The notes under the pieces: model-generated
Databases searched by the model: none
Told to the model about the DNA's origin: nothing
What the model saw: the letters and a program-made list of their open reading frames with translations, nothing else
Made by a program: the position numbers and the translations under genes
Assembly: GCF_045037415.1 (NCBI RefSeq)
Contig: NZ_CP173438.1
Length of the DNA stretch: 64,000 bases
DNA from: Escherichia coli
GTDB taxonomy: Bacteria; Pseudomonadota; Gammaproteobacteria; Enterobacterales; Enterobacteriaceae
Strand: one strand, 5' to 3'
Part shown: one piece after another, positions 30,088-32,272 of the stretch
How the letters are laid out: each line of letters begins with the position of its first letter
How positions within the stretch are numbered: the first letter of the stretch is position 1

Positions 30088-30579
30088 TTAAAGCAGACCA
30101 TGTTCGGCAAAGGAGAAAACCTGGTTGCCACCGACTATCAGATGGTCCGGCACCCGGATATCCACCAGGCCCAGTGCCTGTACCAGACGTTCGGTGATAA
30201 GCCGGTCTGCCTTACTGGGTGTGACTTCACCGGACGGGTGATTGTGCGCCAGTACCACGGCAGCGGCATTGTGGTACAGGGCGCGTTTAATCACTTCCCG
30301 GGGATGGACTTCCGTGCGGTTGATGGTGCCGGTGAAGAGGGTTTCACCGGCAATCAGCTGATTCTGGTTATTCAGATACAGCACCCGGAACTCTTCACGC
30401 TCCAGTCCCGCCATGTTCAGAATCAGCCATTCCCGTGCCGCACGGGTGGAGGTGAAGGCCACACCGGGTTCATGAAGATGGCGGTCCAGGGTTTTCAGAG
30501 CCCGCAGAATGAGACTGCGCTCGCCGGGCGTCATTTCTCCGGGCAGAAAGGAAAGCTGCTGCATTGTCCCTGCCTCCAT
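30088..30579 (-). CDS. RadC-like JAB/MPN domain protein (YeeS/YfjY family)
   Basis: 163-aa ORF with the JAMM-like HNHPSG motif. Confidence 0.8.
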   Translation of the reverse strand: MEAGTMQQLSFLPGEMTPGERSLILRALKTLDRHLHEPGVAFTSTRAAREWLILNMAGLEREEFRVLYLNNQNQLIAGETLFTGTINRTEVHPREVIKRALYHNAAAVVLAHNHPSGEVTPSKADRLITERLVQALGLVDIRVPDHLIVGGNQVFSFAEHGLL

Positions 30580-31065
30580 TCAGTCGATGATGCGCATAAT
30601 GGCGCTGCATTCCGGATGCTGCAGGGCGTAATCCCGCAGCCGGTAATAATGGACCGTCATGGCATAACACTCCGTACGACAGGCGTGATGACTGTACGTC
30701 ATCAGACAGGCAGCAATGCCAGCGGCTTCCGGGCTCATTTCAGCGCGGTTGCCGTTCATGGCATTGAACAGTACCCATGTTTCGTCATCATCGTCATCCG
30801 GTTCGGGGGCCATAAATGCCCCGCCGTTGTTCAGGGTGTACAGATTCCAGATACCACCGCAGTAGTCTTCGCACAGACGGTCCATCCAGCCGAAAACACG
30901 GGGCTCCAGGGCCACCCACTGTGGAATGAGGCCAAAATGCTGCGGCCAGAAGCTGATGCGCTGTTCATCAGGGACTATGGTGGCAACCAACTGAGGCTGG
31001 TCATTCCCTGATGCAGCGGTTACGGAAACAGAAGATGTGGTGGAATTATGTGAAATGGTTTTCAT
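30580..31065 (-). CDS. Antirestriction protein (KlcA/ArdB family, YfjX/YafX-like)
   Basis: 161-aa ORF; recalled similarity to YfjX (…WPQHFGLIPQW…YCGGIWNLYTLNNGGAFMAP…). Confidence 0.75.
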   Translation of the reverse strand: MKTISHNSTTSSVSVTAASGNDQPQLVATIVPDEQRISFWPQHFGLIPQWVALEPRVFGWMDRLCEDYCGGIWNLYTLNNGGAFMAPEPDDDDDETWVLFNAMNGNRAEMSPEAAGIAACLMTYSHHACRTECYAMTVHYYRLRDYALQHPECSAIMRIID

Positions 31066-31119
31066 GAAATGACTCCTTAAAGGACAAATAAATGCGTGGT
31101 TTTCAGGGTAATGGCTGAA

Positions 31120-31938
31120 TCAGCGCAGGCTCTCCAGCAGGGTTTCCGCCATCACCCACAATGCGCGGTTGAGCTTAATGTCAGTGTCAATGCTGTGAAT
31201 GGCACGGGTATGGATACGTTTTCCTTTAGCGCTGCGACCTGAAATTCCGCCTTTCAGCATATTCTCCTGAATGGTCTGATAAGCACTCCACAGGTCCTTA
31301 CCGTAATCCTCCCGGCGTCGTGGCGTCAGAATGTCGGCGGTGGTGACGGGCTGATGTTCGTCACCATAACGGTAAGTCAGTGCCGCCTGTGCCAGCGCCT
31401 GGCGTGCCGGTGGCGGCAGAATCAGCGACTGCATGGCATCACGCTTTTCCTCAATCCGGTCAAACACGCCCACTACCTCGTAAGCCCCTTCAATGACTCT
31501 GTCCACCACATTTCCCCGGTGCGGAACACGCACTTCCCCCAGAGACTGACCACAGACGCACCCGTTCTGGCAGACGAACCTGAAGTAACCCGGCAGCATC
31601 TGGTAGCTGGAGGTACCGTCATGAGAGTTGAGCAGAATAATTTCAGGGACATGTTCTCCGTTTATCTCTCCGGCCCGCCGCAGACGCAGCATGTGTTTTG
31701 TGTATCCCCGGCGGCCCGGGTCGCGCACACGGGTCTGGCAGGCGAAGAATGGCTGAAAGCCTTCCCGCTGCAGGCTTTCCAGTACGGTGATGGTGGGGAT
31801 GTACGTATAGTTCTGGCTTCGGGACGTGTGTTTATCTTCCCCGAAAATCCCCGGCACATAGTGCATCAGTTCTTCGTGTGTCAGCGGACGGTCACGGCGT
31901 ATCTGGTTCGCATAACCAAAACGACTGGCTAGTCGCAT
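31120..31938 (-). CDS. DUF932-family protein (YfjQ/YafZ-like)
   Basis: 272-aa ORF in the typical prophage-remnant gene order. Confidence 0.65.
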   Translation of the reverse strand: MRLASRFGYANQIRRDRPLTHEELMHYVPGIFGEDKHTSRSQNYTYIPTITVLESLQREGFQPFFACQTRVRDPGRRGYTKHMLRLRRAGEINGEHVPEIILLNSHDGTSSYQMLPGYFRFVCQNGCVCGQSLGEVRVPHRGNVVDRVIEGAYEVVGVFDRIEEKRDAMQSLILPPPARQALAQAALTYRYGDEHQPVTTADILTPRRREDYGKDLWSAYQTIQENMLKGGISGRSAKGKRIHTRAIHSIDTDIKLNRALWVMAETLLESLR

Positions 31939-32038
31939 AATTTGCTCCTTATCGGTGGTTAAGATTTACTGGTGTAATAAATGAAAAAAGCCGCGTCTCC
32001 CGGAGAAGACGCGGCCTGATGGATGAAATCAATGAGGT

Positions 32039-32272
32039 TTATTGTCTGAGAAGCCCTCCACTGGCGAGCCACGCATTAAGCTGTTTTCCGGCATCAGCTT
32101 CAGAGTTCCGGCAGCGCCAGCGTCGCTGACCTTCCGCGTTGCGGATAACCCGACGGAAATGCATTCCCGGGTCATCCTGGATAAACACATTGCGGTAAGC
32201 GGTTATGACAGCAACCGCCTGCCCGTATGAGAAAGATCCTTCAGCCAGGACATACTCTGTGTAACCCAGCAT
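32039..32272 (-). CDS. DUF905-family small protein (YkfF-like)
   Basis: 77-aa ORF; …[32 protein letters not shown]… resembles YkfF. Confidence 0.5.

What the first reader, a model, noticed from the sequence alone, without database searches (positions are those of the whole stretch)
30088..32272. Antirestriction / RadC-like / DUF932 / DUF905 block typical of integrative-element establishment genes
A KlcA/ArdB-like antirestriction protein, a RadC-like JAB protein, a DUF932 protein and a DUF905 protein are encoded contiguously. This set recurs in E. coli cryptic prophages and islands and is thought to assist establishment in a new host, i.e. an anti-defence function. Its presence beside antigen 43 and cbtA supports a CP4-44-like module embedded in the larger island.
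Basis: established knowledge. Interest (0 to 1): 0.35.

Follow-up and report, generated by a model that had tools for sequence, protein, structure and literature searches.

The report
Common E. coli island antirestriction block
This is a real but ordinary four-gene stretch (DUF905, DUF932, ArdB antirestriction, RadC-like protease) found in about 80% of complete E. coli genomes as part of the well-known CP4-44-type island module; only ArdB has a proven anti-defence role.

Summary
Four minus-strand genes encode DUF905 (32272-32039), DUF932 (31938-31120), an ArdB/KlcA antirestriction protein (31065-30580) and a RadC-like JAB protein (30564/30579-30088). All have strong Pfam hits.

- **ArdB:** it is almost identical to ArdB of E. 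coli CFT073 (PDB 2WJ9), which blocks type I restriction in vivo.
- **RadC-like protein:** it is 99% identical to K-12 YeeS, keeps the JAMM zinc-protease motif and lacks the N-terminal domain of chromosomal RadC.
- **DUF932 and DUF905:** they have no known function. A 63%-identical DUF932 lies next to the oriT side of the IncF plasmid leading region.

The block is an arbitrary cut from a longer conserved array: GTPase, Ag43, IrmA, DUF905, DUF932, ArdB, RadC, DUF987, a 214-aa ORF, CbeA, CbtA, DUF5983, DUF957. This array is a fuller version of K-12 CP4-44, where a 3.3-kb deletion removed IrmA to ArdB. It lies in a pheV-type pathogenicity island.

At least 80% of the block is present in 4322 of 5426 complete E. 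coli genomes, and the genes are under purifying selection. Strong terminator hairpins bracket DUF905, so the four genes are not one operon.

Verdict: already known, low interest. The "establishment" function is experimentally shown only for ArdB.

The parts
32039..32272 (-). DUF905 (YkfF-like) gene, 77 aa, pI 9.5
   Evidence: Pfam PF06006, E 1.6e-16. PDB 2HJJ YkfF, E 3e-15. 45% identical to K-12 YkfF. RefSeq WP_000902034.1 in identical DNA.
32298..32326 (-). Terminator-like hairpin (12-bp stem plus T-run) between the irmA stop and the DUF905 ATG, ending 26 nt before the ATG
   Evidence: The intergenic fold has z = -4.2. A hairpin of different sequence sits at the same position in a Klebsiella plasmid and in K-12 CP4-6.
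31988..32017 (-). Terminator-like hairpin (13-bp stem plus T-run) between DUF905 and DUF932, ending 50 nt before the DUF932 ATG
   Evidence: z = -4.9, with 0 of 200 shuffles folding as well. The position is conserved with different stem sequences in L006, CP4-6 and CP4-57, and with the same stem in L007.
31120..31938 (-). DUF932 gene, 272 aa, pI 9.3
   Evidence: Pfam PF06067, E 7e-52, full-length. 75% identical to K-12 YfjQ and YafZ. 63% identical to the DUF932 protein of the IncF leading region. AlphaFold2 mean pLDDT 93.5. No whole-fold relative in the PDB.
30580..31065 (-). ArdB/KlcA-family antirestriction gene, 161 aa, pI 4.7
   Evidence: Pfam PF03230, E 2e-37. PDB 2WJ9 (ArdB of CFT073), E 7e-100, with only two substitutions over residues 25-161. 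KlcA 2KMG, E 8e-21. 67-68% identical to K-12 YfjX/LfgA and YafX.
30088..30564 (-). RadC-like JAB/MPN+ gene, 158 aa (the open frame extends to an ATG at 30579)
   Evidence: Pfam PF04002, E 8e-45. TIGR00608 148.9 bits against a 133.85 cut-off, but below the cut-off of the RadC equivalog NF000642, matching only its positions 88-211. PDB 2QLC, E 7e-26. HNHPSGEVTPSKAD motif at residue 107. 99.3% identical to YeeS and 78% to LfgB/YfjY.
29804..30025 (-). DUF987 (YeeT) gene, downstream continuation of the same gene array
   Evidence: Pfam PF06174, E 7.5e-39. 98.6% identical to YeeT.
29141..29785 (-). 214-aa ORF of unknown family between DUF987 and cbeA
   Evidence: No Pfam, NCBIfam or PDB hit. PHROG 5162, function unknown. 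Absent from K-12 CP4-44. 52-59% identical homologues on alphaproteobacterial plasmids.
28723..29091 (-). cbeA/yeeU type IV antitoxin
   Evidence: Pfam PF06154, E 5.5e-50. 92.6% identical to CbeA.
28257..28634 (-). cbtA/yeeV toxin
   Evidence: Pfam PF06755, E 1.8e-60. 85.5% identical to CbtA.
27772..28260 (-). DUF5983 (full-length YeeW-like) gene
   Evidence: Pfam PF25638 plus PF19419.
27558..27755 (-). DUF957 gene, last gene before the next strong terminator
   Evidence: RefSeq annotation of identical DNA. No hit in the Pfam scan used here.
27504..27530 (-). Terminator-like hairpin after DUF957, the inferred end of the DUF932-to-DUF957 transcription unit
   Evidence: z = -4.5. A hairpin at the equivalent position occurs in L006 and L007.
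32351..32806 (-). irmA (interleukin-receptor-mimic protein A) gene, immediately upstream
   Evidence: Pfam PF18673, E 1e-37.
34104..37232 (-). agn43/flu autotransporter, upstream part of the CP4-44-like module
   Evidence: RefSeq annotation. 90% nucleotide identity to the K-12 yeeP-isrC-flu region.
37251..37456 (-). IsrC / IS102 RNA upstream of agn43
   Evidence: Rfam RF00124, 258 bits.
37474..38346 (-). YeeP/YfjP-like GTPase, first gene of the array
   Evidence: Pfam MMR_HSR1. 51% identical to YfjP and YkfA. RefSeq annotates a GTPase.

Best explanation
The four genes are a genuine, selectively maintained segment of the conserved accessory array carried by P4-integrase/AlpA-type enterobacterial genomic islands, the CP4-44, CP4-6 and CP4-57 class. 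Here the array sits in a pheV-type pathogenicity island.

**Array and transcription units (inferred).** The array runs GTPase, IsrC, Ag43, yeeR remnant, IrmA, DUF905, DUF932, ArdB, RadC-JAB, DUF987, 214-aa ORF, CbeA, CbtA, DUF5983, DUF957. The inferred transcription units are [irmA] T [DUF905] T [DUF932 through DUF957] T, where T is a terminator hairpin.

**What is shown.**
- Gene identities, conservation and synteny are shown here.
- ArdB proteins, including one that differs from this protein by two core residues, abolish type I restriction of incoming DNA in vivo without being DNA mimics (literature).
- The paralogue LfgB of the JAB protein has metalloprotease activity (literature).

**What is inferred.**
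- The array descends from, and works like, the early-expressed leading-region genes of conjugative elements.
- After the island enters a new cell, ArdB neutralises type I R-M.
- The JAB Zn-protease removes an as yet unknown host or element protein.
- DUF932 and DUF905 supply further, unknown establishment functions.
- CbtA/CbeA then stabilises the element.

In resident, immobile copies the genes persist because of the toxin-antitoxin pair and possibly through co-opted stress roles.
For: - **Families and structures:**
- **Distribution:** identical DNA occurs in many E. coli, and at least 80% of the block is present in 4322 of 5426 complete genomes.
- **CP4-44 orthology:** shown by protein identities and DNA collinearity, and a 3.3-kb K-12 deletion (window 33877-30541) explains why K-12 lacks DUF905, DUF932 and ArdB there.
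- **Synteny at distance:** the same gene order, DUF905-DUF932-ArdB-RadC-DUF987-YeeU-CbtA-DUF5983-DUF957, is kept at about 71% nucleotide identity on a conjugative Klebsiella IncFIB/HI1B plasmid.
- **Selection:** dN/dS is 0.06-0.35 for all genes.
- **ArdB function:** PMC2836571 and PMC12429846.
- **JAB protease and operon:** PMC10846083 describes the yfjXY-ypjJ-yfjZF operon and the protease.
- **Link to conjugative plasmids:**
  - A 63%-identical DUF932 lies between psiA/hok and gene X (SLT)/traM in IncF plasmids, that is, in the leading region.
  - The DNA search hit at least 5000 plasmids, 4353 of them conjugative, mostly through the DUF932 part.
  - ArdB homologues occur on 4722 plasmids, 3607 of them conjugative.
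  - klcA is a recognised member of leading-region anti-defence islands (PMC11541004).
- **Transcription units:** hairpins with z = -4.2 to -4.9 occur at conserved positions with non-conserved sequence, and there is no such structure in the DUF932-ArdB or RadC-DUF987 spacers.
Against: - No relaxase, T4SS or oriT is annotated in the region inspected here, the identical H105 DNA matching window 8001-56600 plus about 28 kb beyond the window's high end, and three window ORFs plus two from identical H105 DNA scanned. Window 1-8000 was not annotated. Transfer as ssDNA, and hence a 'leading region' logic, is therefore not shown for this island.
- Nothing in the block hits known defence or anti-defence models in PADLOC.
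- DUF932 relatives at 37-49% identity are not next to ArdB, RadC or DUF905, so the tetrad is an enterobacterial arrangement, not a universal functional unit.
- In K-12 CP4-6 and CP4-57, DUF932 lies 1-6 kb away from DUF905-ArdB.
- The only functional study of a JAB paralogue points to host stress physiology rather than establishment.
- The ArdB mechanism remains unresolved: indirect in one study, direct in vitro inhibition in another.
Confidence: 0.62

Rival explanations
1. The block is a domesticated host stress-response module. The ArdB-JAB-DUF987-antitoxin-toxin operon is kept because the JAB protease degrades host regulators such as antitoxin MqsA, derepressing RpoS under oxidative, acid or heat stress. 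Antirestriction is a relic.
For: PMC10846083 reports three findings. Deleting lfgB (yfjY, 78% identical to the window protein) sensitises K-12 to H2O2, acid and heat, and the defect is complemented. Purified LfgB degrades MqsA. MqsA represses the operon. Purifying selection on resident chromosomal copies is also consistent.
Against: - The protease preparation was poorly soluble, and the authors could not exclude contaminating proteases.
- The same array occurs on conjugative plasmids of Klebsiella, and DUF932 and ArdB occur in plasmid leading regions, where a role tied to E. coli MqsA is implausible.
- Genomes carry a median of four copies and up to 17, which fits mobile-element spread better than a host regulatory function.
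Confidence: 0.2
2. The upstream genes are accessory parts of an extended CbtA/CbeA addiction system. The JAB protease, DUF987 and possibly ArdB or DUF932 would control the activity or turnover of the type IV antitoxin or toxin. The whole DUF932-to-DUF957 unit would then be a stabilisation device rather than an anti-defence device.
For: RadC-DUF987-antitoxin-toxin synteny is invariant in all three K-12 paralogous loci, in O157 strain 86-24, in the Klebsiella plasmid and here. The genes share one apparent transcription unit without internal terminators. The published K-12 operon is yfjXY-ypjJ-yfjZF.
Against: - ArdB has an independent, demonstrated activity when expressed alone.
- ArdB/KlcA and DUF932 occur on thousands of plasmids without CbtA/CbeA nearby.
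- To my knowledge, CbtA/CbeA function has been reconstituted with the two genes alone. That is established knowledge of the type IV TA literature, not tested here.
Confidence: 0.12
3. The genes are functionless hitch-hikers, decaying remnants carried along with Ag43 and the toxin-antitoxin pair.
For: They lie in 'cryptic' immobile islands. K-12 CP4-44 has lost DUF905, DUF932 and ArdB by deletion without obvious harm. Neighbouring genes are pseudogenised: the yeeR-like gene is truncated and AbiEii is frameshifted.
Against: - All four ORFs are intact and have Shine-Dalgarno sequences.
- dN/dS is 0.07-0.35 over dS up to above 1.5.
- Gene order is conserved across genera.
- The terminator positions are conserved while their sequences have turned over.
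Confidence: 0.03

Closest known systems
E. coli K-12 cryptic prophage CP4-44 (yeeP-isrC-flu-yeeR-yeeS-yeeT-cbeA-cbtA-yeeW)
   Same: This is the orthologous module. DNA is collinear at 86-96% identity. YeeS is 99.3% identical, YeeT 98.6%, CbeA 92.6% and CbtA 85.5%. The order is the same and Ag43 lies upstream.
   Different: K-12 has a deletion corresponding to window 33877-30541. It removes the rest of the yeeR-like ORF, irmA, DUF905, DUF932, ardB and the first codons of yeeS. K-12 also lacks the 214-aa ORF (window 29766-29116) and has a truncated yeeW. The window carries the fuller, presumably ancestral, version.
K-12 CP4-57 lfgABCDE operon (yfjX-yfjY-ypjJ-yfjZ-ypjF) and the CP4-6 array yafZ...ykfF-yafX-ykfG-ykfH-yafW-ykfI
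   Same: These are paralogous arrays with the same families: ArdB (67-68% identity), JAB (78-82%), DUF987 (64-66%), antitoxin and toxin, DUF932 (75%), DUF905 (45% to YkfF; ypjI, the CP4-57 copy, is a pseudogene with only a 27-residue match) and a GTPase. A hairpin also follows the DUF905 gene.
   Different: In K-12, DUF932 follows the GTPase directly and is separated by 1-6 kb of other genes from DUF905-ArdB. Here the order is DUF905, DUF932, ArdB, contiguous. There is no Ag43 in CP4-6 or CP4-57.
ArdB of E. coli CFT073 PAI II (ORF14; PDB 2WJ9) and KlcA of IncP-1 plasmid pBP136 (PDB 2KMG)
   Same: The sequence match to 2WJ9 is full-length at E 7e-100, with two substitutions in the folded core. 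Size and acidity are similar (pI 4.7 against 4.8). The C-terminal ...ID end aligns with that of KlcA.
   Different: The N-terminal roughly 24 residues differ, and the protein is 161 aa against 157 aa. Activity of this exact allele has not been tested.
Leading-region anti-defence islands of conjugative plasmids (Samuel and Burstein 2024), including the IncF leading region
   Same: Both contain a KlcA/ArdB-family gene, and IncF leading regions also carry a DUF932 gene. Genes are co-oriented on one strand and adjoin a toxin-antitoxin system. In IncF plasmids, DUF932 lies between psiA/hok and gene X/oriT.
   Different: This island has no identified oriT, relaxase, ssb, psiB or ssDNA promoter. The anti-defence role of DUF932, DUF905 and the JAB protein has not been demonstrated.
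Chromosomal RadC (YicR-type, NF000642)
   Same: It shares the C-terminal JAB/MPN+ domain with the HxHxxxxxxxSxxD motif.
   Different: It lacks the N-terminal roughly 85 residues of full-length RadC. It matches only profile positions 88-211 and scores 160 bits against a 180-bit cut-off. It is the short mobile-element version.

Membership tests
ArdB/KlcA antirestriction proteins (Pfam PF03230) | Profile match above the curated threshold over the whole domain | tested here: met
   127.4 bits against a 25-bit cut-off, covering profile positions 1-92 of 92.
ArdB/KlcA antirestriction proteins (Pfam PF03230) | Sequence relationship to the structurally defined ArdB/KlcA fold | tested here: met
   2WJ9 at E 7e-100, nearly identical; 2KMG at E 8e-21, aligned to the last residue.
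ArdB/KlcA antirestriction proteins (Pfam PF03230) | Small acidic protein of about 140-160 aa | tested here: met
   161 aa, pI 4.74. ArdB of CFT073 is 157 aa with pI 4.83.
ArdB/KlcA antirestriction proteins (Pfam PF03230) | Alleviates type I restriction in vivo without blocking modification | not testable with these tools
   Shown for ArdB of CFT073, YafX, YfjX and KlcA in PMC2836571. This allele differs from ArdB of CFT073 by two core residues and the N-terminal tail.
RadC-like JAB domain (Pfam PF04002; JAMM/MPN+ metalloproteases) | Profile match above threshold | tested here: met
   152.1 bits against 22.1. TIGR00608 scores 148.9 against 133.85.
RadC-like JAB domain (Pfam PF04002; JAMM/MPN+ metalloproteases) | Zinc-binding JAMM motif HxH-x7-S-xx-D, with an upstream Glu | tested here: met
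   HNHPSGEVTPSKAD starts at residue 107. An upstream Glu is present in TEVHPREV; its identity as the catalytic Glu is inferred from the alignment with 2QLC.
RadC-like JAB domain (Pfam PF04002; JAMM/MPN+ metalloproteases) | Metalloprotease or isopeptidase activity | not testable with these tools
   Reported for the paralogue LfgB/YfjY, with caveats about purity (PMC10846083).
Canonical chromosomal RadC (NCBIfam NF000642 equivalog) | Full-length architecture with the N-terminal domain; score above the equivalog cut-off | tested here: not met
   160.3 bits against a 180-bit cut-off; only profile positions 88-211 of 212 are matched.
DUF932 (Pfam PF06067) | Full-length profile match above threshold | tested here: met
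   176.8 bits against 23, covering profile positions 1-227 of 227. 5341 library proteins (one representative per 50%-identity cluster) match at E <= 0.001. The confident AF2 model matches phage DUF932/DUF945 models with TM 0.86.
DUF905 (Pfam PF06006) | Profile match above threshold and relationship to the YkfF structure | tested here: met
   60.5 bits against 22.3. 2HJJ at E 3e-15.
CP4-44-type island module | Orthology and collinearity with K-12 yeeP-flu...yeeS-yeeT-cbeA-cbtA-yeeW | tested here: met
   with two indels relative to K-12.
Leading-region anti-defence island of a conjugative element | Location next to oriT on the side that enters the recipient first | tested here: inconclusive
   No oriT, relaxase or T4SS is annotated in the part of the island examined. 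The island backbone has AlpA, DUF3987/YfjI and a YagK/YfjJ protein with a weak REP_ORF2-G2P hit (24.3 bits against 27.8). Homologous DUF932 does occupy that position in IncF plasmids.
Leading-region anti-defence island of a conjugative element | Contains experimentally validated anti-defence genes, co-oriented on one strand | tested here: met
   ArdB is present. All genes from the GTPase to DUF4942 are on the minus strand.
Leading-region anti-defence island of a conjugative element | ssDNA promoters (Frpo/ssi-type long hairpins) driving early expression | not tested
   No dedicated search was made. Only short terminator-type hairpins were seen in the spacers examined, and there are no Rfam matches in the block.

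The most novel reading that the evidence does not exclude
The co-oriented array from the GTPase to DUF957 would be the functional 'leading region' of a mobilisable island. Its transfer would start near the divergent AlpA / DUF3987 / YagK-YfjJ (Gp2/REP-like) backbone. DUF932 is the second gene from the oriT side in IncF plasmids and has invariant Cys/Asn/His positions. DUF932 and DUF905 would be uncharacterised anti-defence or establishment proteins. The conserved hairpins that bracket DUF905 would gate their expression, by attenuation or antitermination, rather than simply terminating transcription.
Probability: 0.15. Interest if true: 0.55.

Novelty: already known. Interest (0 to 1): 0.13.

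Why it matters
As it stands, this is routine annotation of a ubiquitous E. coli island module, and it mainly helps to delimit the CP4-44-like part of a pheV pathogenicity island. The residual value is that two of the four genes, DUF932 and DUF905, still have no known function. They are among the most widespread mobile-element genes in Enterobacteriaceae. They are under purifying selection, and DUF932 sits in the first-entering part of IncF resistance plasmids. A functional assignment would bear on how islands and resistance plasmids establish in new hosts.

Tried and rejected
1. **Known RNA elements in the block.** Rfam found nothing at gathering threshold on the whole window, or at E <= 1 on 26-39 kb, apart from IsrC/IS102 upstream of agn43.
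2. **Known defence-system membership.** PADLOC gave no hits for the block. The only hit was a weak LeoBC-like match for the GTPase.
3. **Antisense coding.** Three long plus-strand ORFs overlapping the genes have no Pfam hits and are treated as spurious.
4. **Function of DUF932 from structure.** The AF2 model is confident.
   - BFVD returned only uncharacterised phage DUF932/TIGR03299 proteins.
   - The AFDB50 library was unavailable.
5. **Literature on DUF932, YfjQ and YafZ.** Nothing on function was found.
6. **Universality of the tetrad.** DUF932 relatives at 37-49% identity lie beside ParA, ParB_N, topoisomerase III and methylase genes, or beside phage-like genes, not beside ArdB, RadC or DUF905. 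The idea of a universal four-gene unit is rejected.
7. **Sigma-70 promoters.** The promoter scan found fewer sites than shuffles and none upstream of DUF905 or DUF932, so it was uninformative.
8. **Repeats.** The repeat search in 24-39.5 kb gave only short matches that look like chance.
9. **Single operon.** The idea that the four genes form one operon is rejected because of the hairpins at 32326-32298 and 32017-31988.
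Full report
**1. Observation**

- DUF905, 32272-32039, 77 aa.
- DUF932, 31938-31120, 272 aa.
- An ArdB/KlcA antirestriction protein, 31065-30580, 161 aa.
- A RadC-like JAB protein, 30579 or 30564 to 30088, 163 or 158 aa.

Pfam confirms every family well above the curated cut-offs: PF06006 60.5 bits, PF06067 176.8 bits, PF03230 127.4 bits and PF04002 152.1 bits.

Comparison with solved structures gave these results:
- ArdB matches ArdB of E. coli CFT073 (2WJ9) at E 7e-100, with two substitutions in the folded part, and KlcA (2KMG) at E 8e-21.
- The JAB protein matches 2QLC at E 7e-26.
- DUF905 matches YkfF (2HJJ) at E 3e-15.
- DUF932 has no PDB sequence relative.

Each gene has a Shine-Dalgarno sequence. 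ArdB is acidic (pI 4.7). The JAB protein keeps the HNHPSGEVTPSKAD zinc motif. It matches only positions 88-211 of the chromosomal RadC equivalog and scores below that model's cut-off, so it is the short, mobile-element type of RadC. Antisense ORFs have no family hits.

**2. Context**

The 12.6-kb stretch 26000-38600 is 100% identical to the chromosomes of many E. coli strains. In strain H105 it lies in a mosaic island next to the kps capsule genes. The island also carries a sialic-acid-type gene cluster, iha, sat and the aerobactin genes. I read this as a pheV-type pathogenicity island. That reading rests on gene content, because no tRNA gene lies in the window.

RefSeq annotates the co-oriented array as: GTPase, [IsrC RNA], Ag43, a truncated yeeR-like gene, IrmA, DUF905, DUF932, antirestriction, JAB, DUF987, hypothetical (214 aa), YeeU/CbeA, CbtA, DUF5983, DUF957, DUF4942, DUF6088 and AbiEii (frameshifted) (Pfam).

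The backbone on the other side has a DUF3987/YfjI protein, AlpA and a YagK/YfjJ (Gp2/REP-like) protein.

**3. Relation to K-12**

The module is orthologous to CP4-44. The JAB protein is 99.3% identical to YeeS, DUF987 is 98.6% identical to YeeT, CbeA is 92.6% identical and CbtA 85.5%. The yeeP-isrC-flu DNA aligns at 90% identity.

The alignment shows that K-12 lacks window 33877-30541. The K-12 yeeR-yeeS junction is therefore a deletion scar that removed irmA, DUF905, DUF932, ardB and the 5' end of yeeS. K-12 also lacks the 214-aa ORF.

CP4-6 and CP4-57 carry paralogous sets: DUF932 at 75% identity, ArdB 67-68%, JAB 78-82% and DUF905 45% to YkfF in CP4-6. The CP4-57 DUF905 copy, ypjI, is a pseudogene with only a short match. 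In both, DUF932 sits beside the GTPase, 1-6 kb from DUF905-ArdB.

**4. Distribution and selection**

- A collinear match to at least 80% of the 2.3-kb block occurs in 4322 of 5426 complete E. coli genomes, with a median of four places per genome.
- A conjugative Klebsiella IncFIB/HI1B plasmid keeps the order DUF905-DUF932-(hyp)-ArdB-(hyp)-RadC-DUF987-YeeU-CbtA-DUF5983-DUF957 at about 71% nucleotide identity. O157 strain 86-24 keeps the same order at about 90%.
- Pairwise dN/dS is 0.06-0.35 for all genes, at dS up to above 1.5.
- DUF932 is a very large family: 5341 proteins of the library (one representative per 50%-identity cluster) match at E <= 0.001.
- Relatives at 37-49% identity sit beside ParA, ParB_N, topoisomerase III and methylase genes, or in phage-like contexts, not beside ArdB, RadC or DUF905. 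The tetrad is therefore an enterobacterial arrangement.

**5. Transcription units**

Three of the strongest terminator-like hairpins in 26-39 kb lie on the coding strand in spacers of this array: 32326-32298, 32017-31988 and 27530-27504. A fourth, of similar strength, lies at 37291-37264 just upstream of agn43, within the IsrC/IS102 RNA match. The three spacers fold with z = -4.2, -4.9 and -4.5, whereas the DUF932-ArdB and RadC-DUF987 spacers do not (z = -0.3 and -1.1).

Hairpins of unrelated sequence occupy the same positions in the Klebsiella plasmid and in K-12 CP4-6 and CP4-57. O157 86-24 has the same stem as the window. Each hairpin is followed by a T-rich tail, in most cases of TTTTnnTTTAT type.

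I infer the units [irmA] T [DUF905] T [DUF932...DUF957] T. This agrees with the published K-12 yfjXY-ypjJ-yfjZF operon.

Only 26 nt separate the first hairpin from the DUF905 start codon, and the promoter scan found nothing there. How DUF905 and DUF932 are transcribed remains unexplained. In E. coli Nissle, a DUF932 gene rose together with a phase-ON Ag43 gene (PMC11056357). If that gene lies downstream of that Ag43 copy, which was not checked, this would hint at read-through.

**6. Function**

- **ArdB.** Six family members block all four type I R-M families in vivo, including ArdB of CFT073, YafX and YfjX. They did not inhibit EcoKI in vitro and are not DNA mimics (PMC2836571). A 2025 study found direct in vitro inhibition of a Bacillus type I enzyme by R64 ArdB (PMC12429846). 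The mechanism is unsettled, but the phenotype is established.
[quoted passage not shown] The authors note caveats about the purity of the preparation (PMC10846083).
- **DUF932.** The AF2 model is confident (pLDDT 93.5) but has no whole-fold PDB relative, and its phage relatives are all uncharacterised. The alignment shows invariant P29, C123, N125, H140 and G230, and near-invariant H82, R85, R87, E99, N104 and H106. A 63%-identical homologue lies between psiA/hok and gene X (SLT)/traM in IncF plasmids. By established knowledge of F-plasmid organisation, that is the leading region next to oriT. The DNA search hit at least 5000 plasmids, 4353 of them conjugative.
- **ArdB on plasmids.** Homologues occur on 4722 plasmids, 3607 of them conjugative. 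klcA is a recognised component of leading-region anti-defence islands (PMC11541004).
- **DUF905.** No functional information exists.

**7. Judgement**

The "establishment/anti-defence" label is experimentally grounded only for ArdB, positionally suggested for DUF932, and purely associative for DUF905 and the JAB protein.

For this particular island, no oriT, relaxase or T4SS was found in the parts examined. The block's boundaries are arbitrary with respect to the conserved array and its transcription units.

The gene set has been described repeatedly in island surveys (for example PMC6174562) and in K-12 annotation. This is already known biology of low interest.

The remaining open points are the unknown roles of DUF932 and DUF905, the conserved hairpins around DUF905, and the widely conserved 214-aa ORF downstream.

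Noticed in passing
window 32326-32298, 32017-31988 and 27530-27504 (minus strand); L006 6098-6152 and 6387-6489; L003 5208-5304 and 5545-5620; L004 13818-13919: DUF905 is bracketed by strong terminator-type hairpins, each with a T-rich tail, most of TTTTnnTTTAT type. The first ends only 26 nt before the DUF905 ATG. Positions are conserved in a Klebsiella plasmid and in K-12 CP4-6 and CP4-57, but the stem sequences differ. No promoter is evident downstream of the hairpins, so read-through, attenuation or antitermination may control DUF905 and DUF932 expression.
   Followed up: partly
window 29141-29785 (minus strand): A 214-aa ORF lies between DUF987 and cbeA. It has no Pfam, NCBIfam or PDB match (only PHROG 5162, function unknown) and is absent from K-12 CP4-44. 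It is 52-59% identical to plasmid genes of Rhodobacterales and other Alphaproteobacteria, where some records call it 'antitoxin of toxin-antitoxin stability system'. That is unusually high conservation across classes.
   Followed up: partly
window 33877-30541 compared with L002 (K-12) 10300-10303: The K-12 yeeR-yeeS junction is a deletion scar. K-12 yeeR ends with 134 nt homologous to window 34011-33878 and then jumps into yeeS. K-12 yeeR is therefore a chimeric ORF and K-12 YeeS is N-terminally truncated, at 148 aa against 158 aa.
   Followed up: yes
window 31120-31938 (DUF932 protein); alignment A1: Across 96 relatives at 36-52% identity the family has invariant P29, C123, N125, H140 and G230, and near-invariant H82, R85, R87, E99, N104 and H106. 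That pattern would fit a metal or active site rather than a purely structural protein. Their clustering in the model was not checked.
   Followed up: no
window 37251-37456 (minus strand): A full-length IsrC/IS102 RNA match (Rfam RF00124, 258 bits) lies just upstream of agn43, with a strong hairpin at 37291-37264.
   Followed up: no
window 37474-38472 (minus strand): The YeeP-like GTPase at the head of the array has a weak match (E 4e-08, partial) to the PADLOC candidate defence model LeoBC.
   Followed up: no
window 25431-26559 (minus strand): A DUF6088/AbiEi-like gene plus an AbiEii nucleotidyltransferase toxin pair lies at the end of the array. RefSeq marks the AbiEii gene as frameshifted in identical DNA.
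   Followed up: no
window 3165-3288, 6573-6611 and about 8000-16000: An STnc490 sRNA and a JUMPstart element match Rfam. An 8-kb stretch of about 30% GC lies beside the conserved kps export and biosynthesis genes, which are annotated in H105 at positions corresponding to window about 15900-23900. It is presumably the serotype-specific capsule region. At the equivalent position strain H105 has the K5 kfi genes instead.
   Followed up: no
literature (PMC11056357); relevant to window 31120-37232: In E. coli Nissle a DUF932 (yfjQ-like) gene was among the most up-regulated genes when an Ag43 copy switched on. If that gene lies downstream of that Ag43 copy (not checked), the phase-variable agn43 promoter may drive the downstream array despite the intervening hairpins.
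   Followed up: no
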